The notes under the pieces were generated by a model that did no database searches, was not told the origin of the DNA, and worked only from the letters and a program-made list of their open reading frames with translations. The translations under genes were made by a program, and so were the position numbers. A DNA stretch of 63,873 nucleotides, filler included, from Octopus bimaculoides (Eukaryota): assembly GCF_001194135.2 (NCBI RefSeq). It is 5 parts of 5 records of this genome, joined end to end, with 100 filler letters (N's around TTAATTAATTAA, not from the genome) between each part and the next. Parts side by side here need not be neighbours in the genome. Positions count along the whole stretch, not along the records: positions 1 to 30,384 come from NC_068985.1; positions 30,485 to 48,511 come from NC_068993.1; positions 48,612 to 61,533 come from NC_068982.1; positions 61,634 to 62,771 come from NW_026389766.1; 1 more part is not named here. One strand, given 5' to 3'. Below are positions 5,941-62,180 of the stretch, in pieces (position 1 is the stretch's first letter; each line of letters begins with the position of its first letter).

Positions 5941-6558
5941 AATAAAAAATAGTGGCATAACAAGGCACCAATGTTTGCTGGAAATAGCAGTCTATAACAG
6001 TACGACGTTATGTAAAGCTTCAGTAAATGTATAGAGGCAAAGATGAGAAATGGACAACCTAGAATGGATAATCTAGTACTCGAGTTTTGTTATCGTAAAT
6101 CTGCTGGAAAATATTACTATAATATTGTAATAATATTTATAATTTTTATATAAAATCTTTCACTGATCTCGGTTCTGTTTATGGTTAGGCTTATCAGCCG
6201 GATTTACAAGCATTTCGACTTAGGTGAACCTAGCTGAAGAAGACTGACCAGATTTACAATAATAAACGTATTCTGGAAAGTCCGAAACTCGTGTACTAGG
6301 TTATCCATTCTAGGTTGTCCGTTTCTTCGTCGTTCTTCCTAGTGGTAAGACAAAAAATTTTTATGTTCGCCGTCCACACATACCTTTGCCACTAAACATT
6401 CGGTGAAGCTTTACATAGCGTCGTACGGTTATCGACTGGTATTTCCAGCAAACATTGCTGTTTTGTTGTGCCACTATTTCCTATTTATAATACTACCTTT
6501 ACGGTGCTTTATTTTGCTGGAAAATAATACTATTATATTGTAATAATATTTATAATTG
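5941..6558 (+). mobile_element. Non-coding hammerhead-bearing retroelement (Penelope pLTR/retrozyme-like): inverted partial copy + ~415-bp unit + terminal direct repeat
   Basis: TGCTGGAAAATA.TACTAT.ATATTGTAATAATATTTATAATT at ~6101-6143 and ~6517-6558; 5941-6086 is an inverted copy of ~6284-6486 with an internal deletion; hammerhead at 6227-6302. Confidence 0.7.
6227..6302 (+). ncRNA. Type I hammerhead ribozyme motif
   Basis: Stem I AACCTAG(6227-33)/CTAGGTT(6296-6302); core CTGAAGA(6234-40); stem II GACT/AGTC with inner CCAGA/TCTGG; GAAAC(6284-88); stem III AC-tcgt-GT; predicted cleavage after GUA at 6295; A.C mismatch at 10.1/11.1. Confidence 0.75.
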
Positions 6559-6616
6559 ATATATCTATCTATCTATCTATCTATCTATCTATCTATCTAT
6601 CTATCTATCTTATTTA

Positions 6617-6813
6617 TTAAAGCCGAAAATATTGTCACGAACTGTTACTCAGAGGTTTCACGTGAGCATTCGTCAGATAGATGTGATATTACTGAATAAT
6701 GTAAATTTATAACAATTTTATAAAACTTCATTGCCCTGAATCATAATAGCTGTCTGACGAACGGTCACATGAAACTCTCGGTAACATTTTTTTCAAGTTT
6801 TTATCGGTTTTAA
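6617..6813. mobile_element. ~200-bp imperfect palindrome / foldback MITE flanked by TTAA
   Basis: Left arm TGTTACTCAGAGGTTTCACGTGAGCATTCGTCAGATAG mirrors the reverse complement of the right arm TGTTACCGAGAGTTTCATGTGACCGTTCGTCAGACAG; TTAA at 6617-20 and 6810-13. Confidence 0.7.
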
Positions 6814-7035
6814 TGAAATAGTATTTTGCTCTGCCCTTTGGTGTTCTAATGCTATTTTTTTTTACCTTGTTTTGCACCTTTGTGCTTACTTGTGTGTACG
6901 TGCGTGTGCATGTGTTTGTGTATGTGTGTGTGTGTATGTATACAGATGCATAAGACATTATACGCTACATACATACACACACACACACACACACACACAC
7001 ACACACACACACACACACATATATATATATATATA

Positions 7036-7077
7036 GGCGAACTGGCAGAAACGTTAGCACGCCGGGCGAAATGCTTA
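7036..7077 (+). mobile_element. SINE family B head, cut by gap
   Basis: GGCGAACTGGCAGAAACGTTAGCACGCCGGGCGAAATGCTTA, same head as 15155, 32869, 43910, 54200. Confidence 0.8.
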
Positions 7078-7870
7078 NNNNNNNNNNNNNNNNNNNNNNN
7101 NNNNNNNNNNNNNNNNNNNNNNNNNNNNNNNNNNNNNNNNNNNNNNNNNNNNNNNNNNNNNNNNNNNNNNNNNNNNNNNNNNNNNNNNNNNNNNNNNNNN
7201 NNNNNNNNNNNNNNNNNNNNNNNNNNNNNNNNNNNNNNNNNNNNNNNNNNNNNNNNNNNNNNNNNNNNNNNNNNNNNNNNNNNNNNNNNNNNNNNNNNNN
7301 NNNNNNNNNNNNNNNNNNNNNNNNNNNNNNNNNNNNNNNNNNNNNNNNNNNNNNNNNNNNNNNNNNNNNNNNNNNNNNNNNNNNNNNNNNNNNNNNNNNN
7401 NNNNNNNNNNNNNNNNNNNNNNNNNNNNNNNNNNNNNNNNNNNNNNNNNNNNNNNNNNNNNNNNNNNNNNNNNNNNNNNNNNNNNNNNNNNNNNNNNNNN
7501 NNNNNNNNNNNNNNNNNNNNNNNNNNNNNNNNNNNNNNNNNNNNNNNNNNNNNNNNNNNNNNNNNNNNNNNNNNNNNNNNNNNNNNNNNNNNNNNNNNNN
7601 NNNNNNNNNNNNNNNNNNNNNNNNNNNNNNNNNNNNNNNNNNNNNNNNNNNNNNNNNNNNNNNNNNNNNNNNNNNNNNNNNNNNNNNNNNNNNNNNNNNN
7701 NNNNNNNNNNNNNNNNNNNNNNNNNNNNNNNNNNNNNNNNNNNNNNNNNNNNNNNNNNNNNNNNNNNNNNNNNNNNNNNNNNNNNNNNNNNNNNNNNNNN
7801 NNNNNNNNNNNNNNNNNNNNNNNNNNNNNNNNNNNNNNNNNNNNNNNNNNNNNNNNNNNNNNNNNNNNNN

Positions 7871-59169: not shown

Positions 59170-59810
59170 GATTTGAGTCACTCGGTTTTAGACTTTAAAC
59201 TCTGCTGGATCGTAGCCATCTTCATCGATACCATTCACCACATGCTTTTCCCCACACCTACAGACCAAATAACATTCTCTCTCATAATTCACCCGCATAT
59301 CCTTTTTGTGAGACACTTAAACATTCATAATTTCCGGATACTGCTTTCTTATTCAACAACTGATCTTATATTTCCCACAGCAAACTCGTAAACTGAAGCT
59401 CGGTCCCACCCATCAGATGCAATATAGCAATCGCTAACGATACAACATTTGACGGGACATTATCAACACTGCAAGCATCAACGGCTCTATGTCATTGTCC
59501 GACATGACACTGAAAATTTCTTGTACGTATTCTAACCTTATAAATTGGACAACTTGGAAGTATTGCAGGGATATTTATACTGAAATAAAAGGTCGGCATA
59601 TCCCCAATCAGTTTTGGAAGTATACTCGTAGCACAATACTATATATCTCTCCAGCCTCTGCTCACTCATTTCAGCACAGGACATTCTATTACCGACTTAT
59701 AGCCAACGCGTATCTCTACGTGTATTGTGACCACATCATCAAAAACACAGAAAGAACAACAGTTCATAATCAAATTAGGAACAATGTCAGCAGCGGGTTT
59801 CTATGAACGC
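59170..59810 (+). mobile_element. Possible fossil APE endonuclease of a CR1/L2/Jockey-type LINE
   Basis: ILFVRHLNIHN (cf. I..GDFN.H), LIFPT, MSLSD (cf. SDH). Confidence 0.4.
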
Positions 59811-60141
59811 TACTTCATTTCTTAGTTCAGTAATCCCATTTCTATATTTCAGCTCTACTCTCACCTCATCTTATTCTGCAATCTCTCTATGGAAGATTCG
59901 CTTTTTCACCGTTCATTGAGATTCTTCCTGCTAATATTTTCAGTCTACGTATGAAGCTTACGTTGATTTAAGTTTCAAATAAGTTCCAGACAGTTTCTCA
60001 AGCATGGGAATGTAAAGATCTAATATATTTCATTTATTTTCGTCCTGTGACTTTTACTGTCCAAAATGTAGGATATTCGTCACATAAATTTTATCGCACA
60101 TCCTTTGTCGCTTTTACGCAATTACATACATTATATATATA

Positions 60142-61243
60142 TAGGGTGCGGTAAATAAATTGTCGTCTAAATTAGCAAAAATGAAAATAACACTGACATC
60201 TCATTTTAACAGATATTCTTTTATTCTTTTATTCGTTTCAGTCATTTGACTACAGCCAAGATGAAGCACCGCCTTTAGTCGAACAAACTGACCCCAGTAC
60301 TTATTCTTTGTAAGCGTAATGCTTATTCTATCGGATCTTTTGCCGAACCGCTATGTGCAGGAACGTAGATACACCACCATCGATTGTCAAGGCCATGATG
60401 GAGGGGCAAACACAGAGACACAAACACACACATACATATATTTACCAAACTTACATTAAAATATCTTGAAATTCTAAACAGTAAATTTATTCAATGAAAT
60501 TGCCATTTGATTCAACTACGGTCTCCAGACGACTTTGGAATCTCCTGCAACTATTCTGGATGGTCTTCTTGTTTAAGTTGGTGAATACTGCCATACTCAT
60601 TGCCTTCAGTTCATTTTTGGTGTTACAACGATTCTTATTGGTCTTTCGCTCAACCGCGCATCACATACAATGATCAAGGGGCTGGAGTCTGGGAAGCTGA
60701 CTGGCCAGATGTTAGTAGTCATGTGGTCGCAGGAATTGTCTGACAGCCGTGACTGTGTTCTCCTGCTTGGCCCTTTCTCATCTTGCACGCGGAATACCGA
60801 ATGTCTTCATGTACTACGTGCTTGATAAGGAACTCAGGCAGTCCCATGTCCCTGACAATGGACCTGATTGCCTTGGAGGTATCGTTGTCAATCACGGGCT
60901 GGATCTCACCAACAAATTCTGGAGTTCTTTTCTTATCAGAACGATCAGAGTGAGTTTTCCGAGCTCCTGTATGTTCGTAATTACCTTCAGACTTATCCAA
61001 CTCTTTCTGAATCCTCTGCAATGTCCTCAGATTGACACCCAAACATTGAAATGTTCGTATTGGAGCTTCCGACGTGAATGCCAAGCAGTACATCATGTCA
61101 TTTCCAAATTTCCGGCAGAGTGATTTGCGTCATGGTGCCCGACAGACGCTATTCTACTGTGTAGTCGAAAAAATCAAAGACAACAACGTGCATGCGCGTA
61201 ATTAAAAATATATAATGGCAACAATTTACCTGTCGCACGTTGT
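60142..61243 (-). mobile_element. Internally deleted maT/DD37D-like Tc1/mariner element with a family A SINE insert (60228-60420)
   Basis: Ends TAGGGTGCGGTAAATAAATTGTC / GGCAACAATTTACCTGTCGCACGTTG; HTH ORF 61096-60719 (LGVNLRTLQRIQKEL...RSIVRDMG); C-terminus RLETVVESNGNFIE*. Confidence 0.8.
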
Positions 61244-62004
61244 GCGAGTATATGTGTGTGGGTGTATGCGTGTGTGTGCGTGCGTGTGGGTATAAATATA
61301 TAAATGTGTATATAAACATACATGTATATGCGTTTGTATTACTTTCATGTGATACAAAATAACTGTGAGCGTATGTCTTAATTTAGTCTCCATATCAGGA
61401 AATTCATCCAAAACGAATTAGTAAAACCTAATTAACGTGTTCAACTTTCCATGATTTGATAATGTACATATAATGCAAATAACAACACATACACACACAC
61501 ACACACACACACACACACACACACACACACTTANNNNNNNNNNNNNNNNNNNNNNNNNNNNNNNNNNNNNNNNNNNNTTAATTAATTAANNNNNNNNNNN
61601 NNNNNNNNNNNNNNNNNNNNNNNNNNNNNNNNNTGTATATATACATGTGTGTGTGTGTACGTATATATATAAATAAGATATATTCACATATGTATTTGTA
61701 TATAAAAATATACACGCACACAGACACACAGACACGCACGCACACATGCACGCACACATGCACGCACAATAACACATACATACACATGCATGCATATATG
61801 CATATATATGTATACCTTTGTTTATACACATATATAAATATGTGTTTTCACGTATAGAAAAAAATGTAGTTTTGTATTCATTCATCTCCGAAAAAGAAAA
61901 TATAAATATTCTGCACATTTAGAAAAGAACTTTAATGTGATGTTTCTTTTAATAGGCAGATGATTACGTGTGGGAACACTCATACTTATGTACGTATATG
62001 CATA

Positions 62005-62180
62005 CAAATATGTTCCGGTACCATTTTCCTCTTTCTCCGTTCTTCCATTCTCCGAACTTTCCATCTTTCCGACGAAGGGCTACGCCCGAAACGTCAAACG
62101 CTCTTTCTTTCCTTTCCTGAGCGTCCAATAACACTATCCGTATCACGTCCTCACTTTGTTGTCTTTTTGTTATTATTTTT
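62005..62180 (+). mobile_element. Short repeat with a minimal hammerhead-like motif (third family)
   Basis: TTT-CCGACGA-A-GGGC-tac-GCCC-GAAAC-GTC-AAA at 62066-62098; downstream CCTGAGCGTC.AATAA.AC resembles the CCCGAGCGTCATACTAATAC of the 7871-8056 family. Confidence 0.6.

What the first reader, a model, noticed from the sequence alone, without database searches (positions are those of the whole stretch)
5941..62100. Five hammerhead-ribozyme-like motifs from at least three unrelated small repeat families in 64 kb
CUGxxGA-stem II-GAAA motifs occur at 6227-6302 (+), 7964-8000 (-), 38007-38043 (+), 42491-42535 (+) and 62066-62098 (+) (seen). Established: Penelope-like elements and non-autonomous retrozymes carry minimal type I hammerheads with a tiny, often palindromic helix III, and retrozymes give rise to small circular RNAs. 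Inference: this genome hosts several high-copy non-coding hammerhead retroelement families mobilised by Penelope-like elements, whose remnants lie at 38.7-42.1 kb. I do not know of a description of these families as ribozymes in cephalopods.
Basis: partly seen in the sequence, partly recalled or inferred. Interest (0 to 1): 0.75.

Follow-up and report, generated by a model that had tools for sequence, protein, structure and literature searches.

The report
Penelope retrotransposon tails with altered hammerheads
Four of the five hammerhead-shaped motifs are the cut-off tail ends of three protein-coding Penelope-like jumping genes and the fifth lies in a short non-coding repeat likely moved by such genes, a known arrangement, except that one family spread to over 9,000 copies with a core letter change (A6 to U) predicted to weaken self-cutting.

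Summary
All five motifs are present and belong to four high-copy families, not three. B (7964-, 38007+) and D (62066+) are related tails (63% alike) of Neptune-type Penelope-like elements (PLEs). C (42491+) is the pseudo-LTR of the PLE whose ORF remnant lies at 38.7-42.3 kb, here inverted at its 5' end. So B, C and D are 5'-truncated ends of coding elements, not non-coding families. Only A (6227+) is non-coding: a 410-440-nt unit with a long-helix-II type I hammerhead, compensatory changes and PLE-style tandem/inverted insertions (retrozyme-like). Hammerheads in cephalopod PLEs are already listed (Hydra-1_Obim, PMC8557442). The new part is family-wide core change: B has U at position 6 in nearly all copies (9,186 non-A versus 94 A exact matches) while N7 and H17 vary; D has U4C and a broken helix I. 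RNA-seq shows B in read-through transcripts with no break at the cleavage site, and A barely expressed. Cleavage is untested. The scan reported PLE hammerhead tails before in this genome, and a core-altered one in another genome.

The parts
5940..6087 (-). Family A: inverted 3' fragments (copies of 6384-6486 and 6285-6326) placed before the main unit
6102..6560 (+). Family A: one non-coding unit (413-nt period) preceded by 43 nt of the previous unit's 3' end; ends in a (TATC)n microsatellite
6227..6302 (+). Hammerhead A: helix I 7 bp, CUGAAGA, helix II 4 bp with A10.1-C11.1 mismatch plus a 33-nt extension, GAAA, 2-bp helix III (palindromic ACUCGAGU in most copies), predicted cut after 6295
7871..8052 (-). 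Family B: 5'-truncated 3' tail of a young Neptune-type PLE; hammerhead 7964-8000 with CUGUUGA core (U6), helix I 5 bp, helix II 4 bp, ACGU palindrome
37945..38051 (+). Family B: second tail copy, cut by an assembly gap; hammerhead 38007-38043 with private changes (C6, helix II mismatch); start approximate
38750..42270 (-). Decayed ORF of the family C PLE: N-terminal region, part of RT, CX4CxxC linker, start of GIY-YIG; many stops and frameshifts
39740..40390 (-). Fragment of a different PLE-like endonuclease region lying inside the family C ORF in place of part of the RT core (Poseidon-like by recalled motifs; not tested); limits approximate
42297..42640 (+). Family C: inverted, 5'-truncated 3' end (pseudo-LTR) abutting the 5' end of the ORF; hammerhead 42490-42534 with CUGAAGA, helix II 6 bp, AGAUUU self-complementary helix III, bulged helix I
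62016..62187 (+). Family D: 5'-truncated 3' tail of a second Neptune-like PLE; hammerhead 62066-62098 with CCGACGA core (C4), helix II 4 bp, ACGU palindrome, weak helix I

Best explanation
Four motifs (B twice, C, D) are minimal type I hammerhead motifs in the 3' ends of three protein-coding Penelope-like retrotransposon families, left as 5'-truncated stubs beside microsatellites, and the fifth (A) sits in a 410-440-nt non-coding unit likely mobilised by a Penelope-like enzyme. Shown: fixed 3' ends, ragged 5' ends, linkage to RT and GIY-YIG coding remnants, tandem and inverted end copies. Inferred from known PLE biology: the element's endonuclease nicks (TA)n, the RT copies from the RNA 3' end and usually stops early; in tandem transcripts two motifs would pair through the palindromic helix III and cut. 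Predicted: the family-wide U6 (B) and C4 plus broken helix I (D) slow or abolish cutting, so in these two families the motif most likely persists with little cleavage, as a hairpin near the priming end.
For: B: fixed 3' end followed by (TA)n and variable 5' ends. RT-thumb, linker or endonuclease remnants lie in sense upstream in 5 of the 11 extended loci that held the motif, of 16 fetched. The linker reads CSRPCCRTC, a CX4CxxC; homologues carry RVT_1, PF26215 and in some GIY-YIG. C: PLE protein hits in sense upstream in 6 of 29 loci; C tail in sense downstream in 7 of 14 non-self RT hits; a tandem tail directly before the ORF start in L274 and inverted tails at truncation points in L277, L286, L290. 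D: endonuclease C-terminus upstream in L095 (across a gap) and L201 (no gap after the ORF end), linker-proximal motif in L200. A: no continuous ORF in 60 loci (partly overlapping); 17 of 45 listed unit ends run through the same junction into the next unit; helix I C-G/U-A (14/13) and helix II extension A-U/G-C (17/11) in 35 rows. Core tallies: U6 30 of 30 B, C4 30 of 30 D, helix I 3' strand AAA in only 1 of 30 D. Genome-wide 9,186 non-A6 versus 94 A6; U6 in 98 of the first 100 listed. A6C and U4C lower activity in other hammerheads (PMC3088659, PMC7151607).
Against: No full-length intact element was recovered for B or D; linkage rests on fragments, several across assembly gaps. No autonomous partner was found for A. 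Pfam support for the family C ORF is weak (RVT_1 E 0.0015, GIY-YIG E 0.005, both below cut-off) and no clade tree against named references was built. Against loss of cleavage in B: helices I-III and GAAA stay intact across subfamilies and H17 is A, U or C, never G, in 64 of 64 copies, as a working ribozyme would need; natural A6C and U4C variants do still cut. Covariation in A reflects about two inherited events. Nothing was assayed.
Confidence: 0.8

Rival explanations
1. The U6 core of family B is a working natural variant: it still cuts as a dimer in vivo, slowly or with other ions or a protein chaperone, and is kept by selection on cleavage.
For: N7 varies (U 66, G 17, C 13, A 4 among the first 100 listed), loop 2 is 3 or 4 nt and H17 is never G, while helices and GAAA are kept. 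A6C hammerheads cut well in Mn2+ and at high Mg2+ (PMC7151607). Folding predicts a dimer 6.7 kcal/mol more stable than two monomers, though in a rod register.
Against: U6 lets UGUU pair with AACG, giving a predicted rod instead of a three-way junction. RNA depth peaks across the predicted cut with no end pile-up (weak, since monomers are not expected to cut and the libraries are fragmented). H17 never G rests on few subfamily changes.
Confidence: 0.35
2. All five motifs mark non-coding retrozyme families that make small circular RNAs and borrow PLE enzymes.
For: Fits family A: no ORF, over-unit-length copies with one junction, unit size near the 350-390 bp mussel retrozyme (PMC7229834).
Against: B, C and D are continuous with coding remnants and have ragged 5' ends, not unit repeats. 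A gave only 62, 46 and 27 reads in three runs, with depth 0-3 over the hammerhead; no array longer than two units in 30 loci; best copies are 72-88% alike.
Confidence: 0.07
3. The motifs are chance matches to a short, relaxed consensus.
For: Every window copy departs from the canonical motif and Rfam finds none.
Against: They sit 90-250 nt from the 3' end of four retroelement families, with palindromic helix III in all four family majorities, compensatory pairs, and close likeness of B and D to the Acropora Neptune motif printed in PMC4209133 Fig. S3.
Confidence: 0.02

Closest known systems
Minimal hammerheads of metazoan Penelope-like elements (Cervera and De la Pena 2014, PMC4209133), especially the Acropora digitifera Neptune motif
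   Same: Type I topology, extra nucleotide after A9, G10.1-C11.1, palindromic minimal helix III, NUH site, position in the 3' end or pLTR, mostly single copies from truncated elements.
   Different: All 56 motifs in their Fig. S3 have A6 and U4 (their descriptor required this). B has U6; D has C4 and a broken helix I.
EN+ PLEs of Neptune/Nematis type and their insertion structures (Craig et al. 2021, PMC8557442)
   Same: RT followed by C-terminal GIY-YIG, CX2-5CxxC linker, (TA)n bias, partial tandems, inverted 5'-truncated copy at the 5' end, a terminal tail; a hammerhead already listed for octopus Hydra-1_Obim.
   Different: The octopus rows found there are Naiad and Hydra elements with other sequences; B, C and D were not found. 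The clade of C is unresolved.
Metazoan non-LTR retrozymes (PMC7229834; bioRxiv 10.64898/2026.07.22.740005)
   Same: Family A: non-coding, low GC, type I hammerhead with 7-bp helix I, head-to-tail repeats, likely PLE-dependent.
   Different: Unit 410-440 nt, mostly 1-2 units, old and barely seen in RNA; helix II carries a 33-nt extension; 20 of 37 parsed copies have A at 10.1; circles not shown.
Natural core-variant hammerheads A6C and U4C (PMC3088659, PMC7151607)
   Same: Substitution at the same core positions, expected low Mg2+ activity.
   Different: Those are single phage or viroid ribozymes with A6C; here it is A6U, fixed in a retroelement lineage of more than 9,000 copies.

Membership tests
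EN+ Penelope-like element (B, C, D) | RT followed by C-terminal GIY-YIG endonuclease upstream of the tail, same strand | tested here: met
   C. B. D: endonuclease end and linker-proximal motif only. All in fragments.
EN+ Penelope-like element (B, C, D) | Pseudo-LTR, tandem or inverted 5'-truncated end copies | tested here: met
   Met for C (window; L274, L277, L286, L290). Not seen for B or D, where no full-length copy was recovered.
EN+ Penelope-like element (B, C, D) | Fixed 3' end, ragged 5' truncation, microsatellite targets | tested here: met
Neptune/Nematis-type PLE | CX2-5CxxC linker between RT and endonuclease | tested here: met
   B: CSRPCCRTC (L218); C: CTDRNCIVC (L148). D: linker not recovered.
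Neptune/Nematis-type PLE | RT phylogeny with named clade members | not tested
   No named references available as sequences; 'Neptune' rests on the linker, recalled thumb motifs and likeness of the hammerhead to the Acropora Neptune motif.
PLE minimal hammerhead | Helix I, helix II with G10.1-C11.1, GAAA, palindromic helix III, NUH | tested here: met
   B 30 of 30; C family majority; D meets all but helix I.
PLE minimal hammerhead | CUGANGA core box (or U3-A8 covariant) | tested here: not met
   Met in C (25 of 29 CUGA-A/G-GA) and most A; not met in B (U6) or D (C4). B and D are filed as variants, not canonical members.
PLE minimal hammerhead | Self-cleavage as a dimer | not testable with these tools
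   RNA-seq shows no break at the B site, which does not test dimers.
Non-LTR retrozyme (A) | Non-coding short unit with a type I hammerhead | tested here: met
Non-LTR retrozyme (A) | Tandem repeats with at least two complete hammerheads | tested here: inconclusive
   One locus (L002/L010) has two same-strand motifs, the second mutated; others are 1-2 units or inverted. Only top hits were seen.
Non-LTR retrozyme (A) | Abundant small circular RNA | tested here: inconclusive
   Few reads in three cDNA libraries; such libraries can miss circles and divergent subfamilies.

The most novel reading that the evidence does not exclude
The family B Penelope-like lineage kept retrotransposing through several subfamilies, to more than 9,000 copies, with a hammerhead whose 'invariant' A6 is U, and family D did likewise with C4 and a broken helix I. 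Either CUGUNGA is an undescribed working core, or PLE hammerheads can lose catalysis and be kept as a 3' recognition hairpin for the reverse transcriptase. These families are then a natural experiment on whether PLE hammerheads need to cut.
Probability: 0.4. Interest if true: 0.6.

Novelty: new variant of a known kind. Interest (0 to 1): 0.36.

Why it matters
The role of hammerheads in Penelope-like elements is open: they cut poorly in vitro and PMC4209133 leaves non-catalytic roles possible. A young, very abundant family with a fixed core change, plus 94 natural A6 copies as counterparts, makes that question directly testable. It also shows that CUGANGA descriptors and Rfam miss thousands of such motifs. 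The general arrangement (PLE tails and a retrozyme-like unit) is known.

Tried and rejected
Rfam scans of the whole window and of A, C and D alone found no hammerhead. RF00163 on the genome gave 11 matches from 74 scored candidates, none in families A-D. An alternative register for B (UUGAAGA or CUGAAGA core, 3-bp helix II) was rejected: it needs a C-U mismatch in all but the 38007 copy and puts the variable letter at U4 instead of N7. An ancestral A6 subfamily of B was not supported: with positions 6-7 masked, A6 and U6 copies interleave in a 27-row tree with no strongly supported branch, and 11 of 11 unselected old copies have U6. A Naiad origin for C was rejected because its endonuclease is C-terminal. 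A search for an ORF continuous with A found only unrelated PLE fragments in 3 of 60 loci. The look-up of sequencing runs: no RNA holder listed. Lunse et al. 2017 and Arkhipova et al. 2017 were not held. Sequence look-ups of A and B in earlier findings gave nothing.
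Full report
Setting. The window is a pack of five stretches (57,238 non-N bases) from a 2.34-Gb, microsatellite-rich genome. The five motifs lie in three stretches: C5 (6227, 7964), C13 (38007, 42491) and C94909 (62066).

Observation. All motifs are present. A relaxed type I descriptor gave 3 hits against a shuffled mean of 0.06 (100 shuffles, max 1); two are the 7964 and 62066 motifs and one looks like chance. 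The strict CUGANGA descriptor gave none, because every window copy has a defect. Rfam found no hammerhead in the window. Genome searches put the motifs in four families: A (699 first-look candidates, best copies 72-88% alike), B (1,010; 99-100%), C (2,472; 76-85%) and D (1,731; 93-97%) (candidates are not copy numbers). B and D tails are 63% alike; no other pair matched.

Family B is a PLE tail. Copies share a fixed 3' end 98 nt past the predicted cut, followed by (TA)n, and have ragged 5' ends. Walking upstream crosses a long pyrimidine-rich UTR into coding remnants. Of 16 extended loci, 11 held the motif and 5 of those had RT-thumb, linker or endonuclease remnants in sense upstream. The linker is CX4CxxC, which PMC8557442 ties to Neptune and Nematis elements (passages). 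Homologues of the thumb fragment carry RVT_1 and PF26215, some also GIY-YIG.

Family D is a second such tail. The endonuclease C-terminus lies upstream in L095 (across a gap) and L201, and a linker-proximal motif in L200.

Family C is the end of the PLE in the window. A 1,045-aa homologue aligns to 42,199-38,783 on the minus strand from residue 45 to 937, with residues 434-628 missing where a foreign fragment sits. The tail lies in sense downstream of 7 of 14 non-self RT hits, and PLE protein hits lie in sense upstream in 6 of 29 C loci. In L274 a tandem tail precedes the ORF start, and L277, L286 and L290 have inverted tails at the truncation point. In the window the inverted tail (42,297-42,640) abuts the ORF's 5' end, the layout described in PMC8557442 Fig. 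2. Pfam support is weak (RVT_1 E 0.0015, GIY-YIG E 0.005) and the clade is unresolved.

Family A is non-coding. The unit is 410-440 nt. Of 45 listed unit ends, 17 continue through one junction into the next unit and most others stop there in (TA)n (the query contained the junction, so the share is biased). Partial tandems and inverted fragments are the rule and no array exceeded two units in 30 loci. The junction is about 250 nt from the cut site, which fits copying of a circular or multimeric RNA from an internal start (inference). No ORF was continuous with the unit in 60 partly overlapping loci. In 35 of 40 extracted motifs (5 with indels dropped), 85.7% of cells paired; helix I shows C-G/U-A (14/13) and the helix II extension A-U/G-C (17/11); slid controls paired 24-39%. 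These are about two inherited events. Position 10.1 is A in 20, G in 16 and T in 1 of 37 parsed copies.

Core variants. B has CUGUUGA in 30 of 30 top hits; D has C4 in 30 of 30 and an AAA helix I strand in only 1 of 30. Exact 20-nt patterns give 9,186 B-lineage sites with non-A at position 6 and 94 with A. Among the first 100 listed, position 6 is U in 98 and C in 2, while position 7 is U 66, G 17, C 13, A 4. A6 copies interleave with U6 copies in a weakly supported tree, and 11 of 11 unselected older copies have U6; H17 is A, U or C in 64 of 64. So U6 appears ancestral to the lineage and A6 copies are likely later point mutations. Folding predicts that U6 lets UGUU pair with AACG into a rod, and that D forms a similar rod. 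A6C and U4C lower activity elsewhere but do not always abolish it (PMC3088659 section 8 and passages; PMC7151607 passages).

RNA. Three raw runs of one study, about 6% of each read. A: 62, 46 and 27 reads, depth 0-3 over the hammerhead, no joints. B (L040 tail): 2,864, 2,872 and 2,137 reads, both mates equally on both strands, 63-64% running on into unlike flanks, peak depth across the predicted cut and no end pile-up there; the only variant above 10% within the motif is H17 U to C. This fits read-through of genomic stubs. It does not test dimer cleavage or circles.

Mechanism. Shown: tails of coding PLEs, truncation, microsatellite targets, tandem and inverted copies. Established for PLEs: RT plus GIY-YIG, minimal hammerheads that cut weakly as dimers (PMC4209133, text parts 1-2 of 4; PMC6765202 passages). 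Inferred: A borrows such an enzyme. Predicted: B and D cut little or not at all. The rival, a working U6 variant, stays open.

What is known. PMC4209133 describes these motifs across animals including molluscs; all 56 motifs in its Fig. S3 have A6 and U4 (supplement file 2, parts 1-2 of 3; file 1 could not be searched). PMC8557442 File S2 lists a hammerhead in octopus Hydra-1_Obim (supplement rows). PMC6962438 reports 235 Hammerhead_1 hits in giant squid (passages). Retrozymes: PMC7229834 (passages and section 14) and bioRxiv 10.64898/2026.07.22.740005 (part 1 of 5 and passages; supplements closed); neither main text mentions octopus or cephalopods. I found no natural A6U hammerhead in searches (listings only; the one hit is a twister paper, not read) and no description of these families in searches. 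Lunse et al. 2017, the largest survey of PLE hammerhead variants (recalled), was not available and may cover them. Earlier notes of this scan report PLE hammerhead tails and retrozyme-like families in this genome and a core-altered PLE tail in another genome; they are unchecked leads.

Verdict. A real but mostly known arrangement. The fixed A6U core is the part worth testing. Interest 0.36.

Noticed in passing
window 6611-6814: Fold-back pair (69% alike) with two missed hammerhead-like motifs, cores at 6754 (+) and 6676 (-); 67-71% homologues in L291/L295, L232 and L178 have a CCGAYGA core, 3-bp helix II and GUA site. A fifth family.
   Followed up: partly
window 5640-5690 (+): CUGACGA core, long helix II and a perfect 10-nt palindromic helix III with unpaired helix I; no homologue among fetched loci.
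   Followed up: partly
L232-L242: Eleven Rfam Hammerhead_1 matches over the cut-off in other families, four with long loop 2 insertions and two with C4; several lie in inverted repeats.
   Followed up: no
window 39740-40390 (-): Endonuclease-like fragment of another PLE inside the family C ORF; about 70% protein matches in L026 and L030.
   Followed up: partly
window 45829-46923 (-): 363-aa open stretch with RVT_1 (E 6e-12), likely a LINE remnant.
   Followed up: no
window 10855-20030: Degenerate AT-rich satellite with a period of about 47 nt.
   Followed up: no
window 40880-41630 (-): Asn-rich low-complexity expansion inside the N-terminal part of the family C ORF, also seen in L154.
   Followed up: no
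L157-L164, L186-L215: B and D have 3' UTRs of 1-2 kb made of CT-rich or CA-rich simple sequence, where the assembly often breaks.
   Followed up: no
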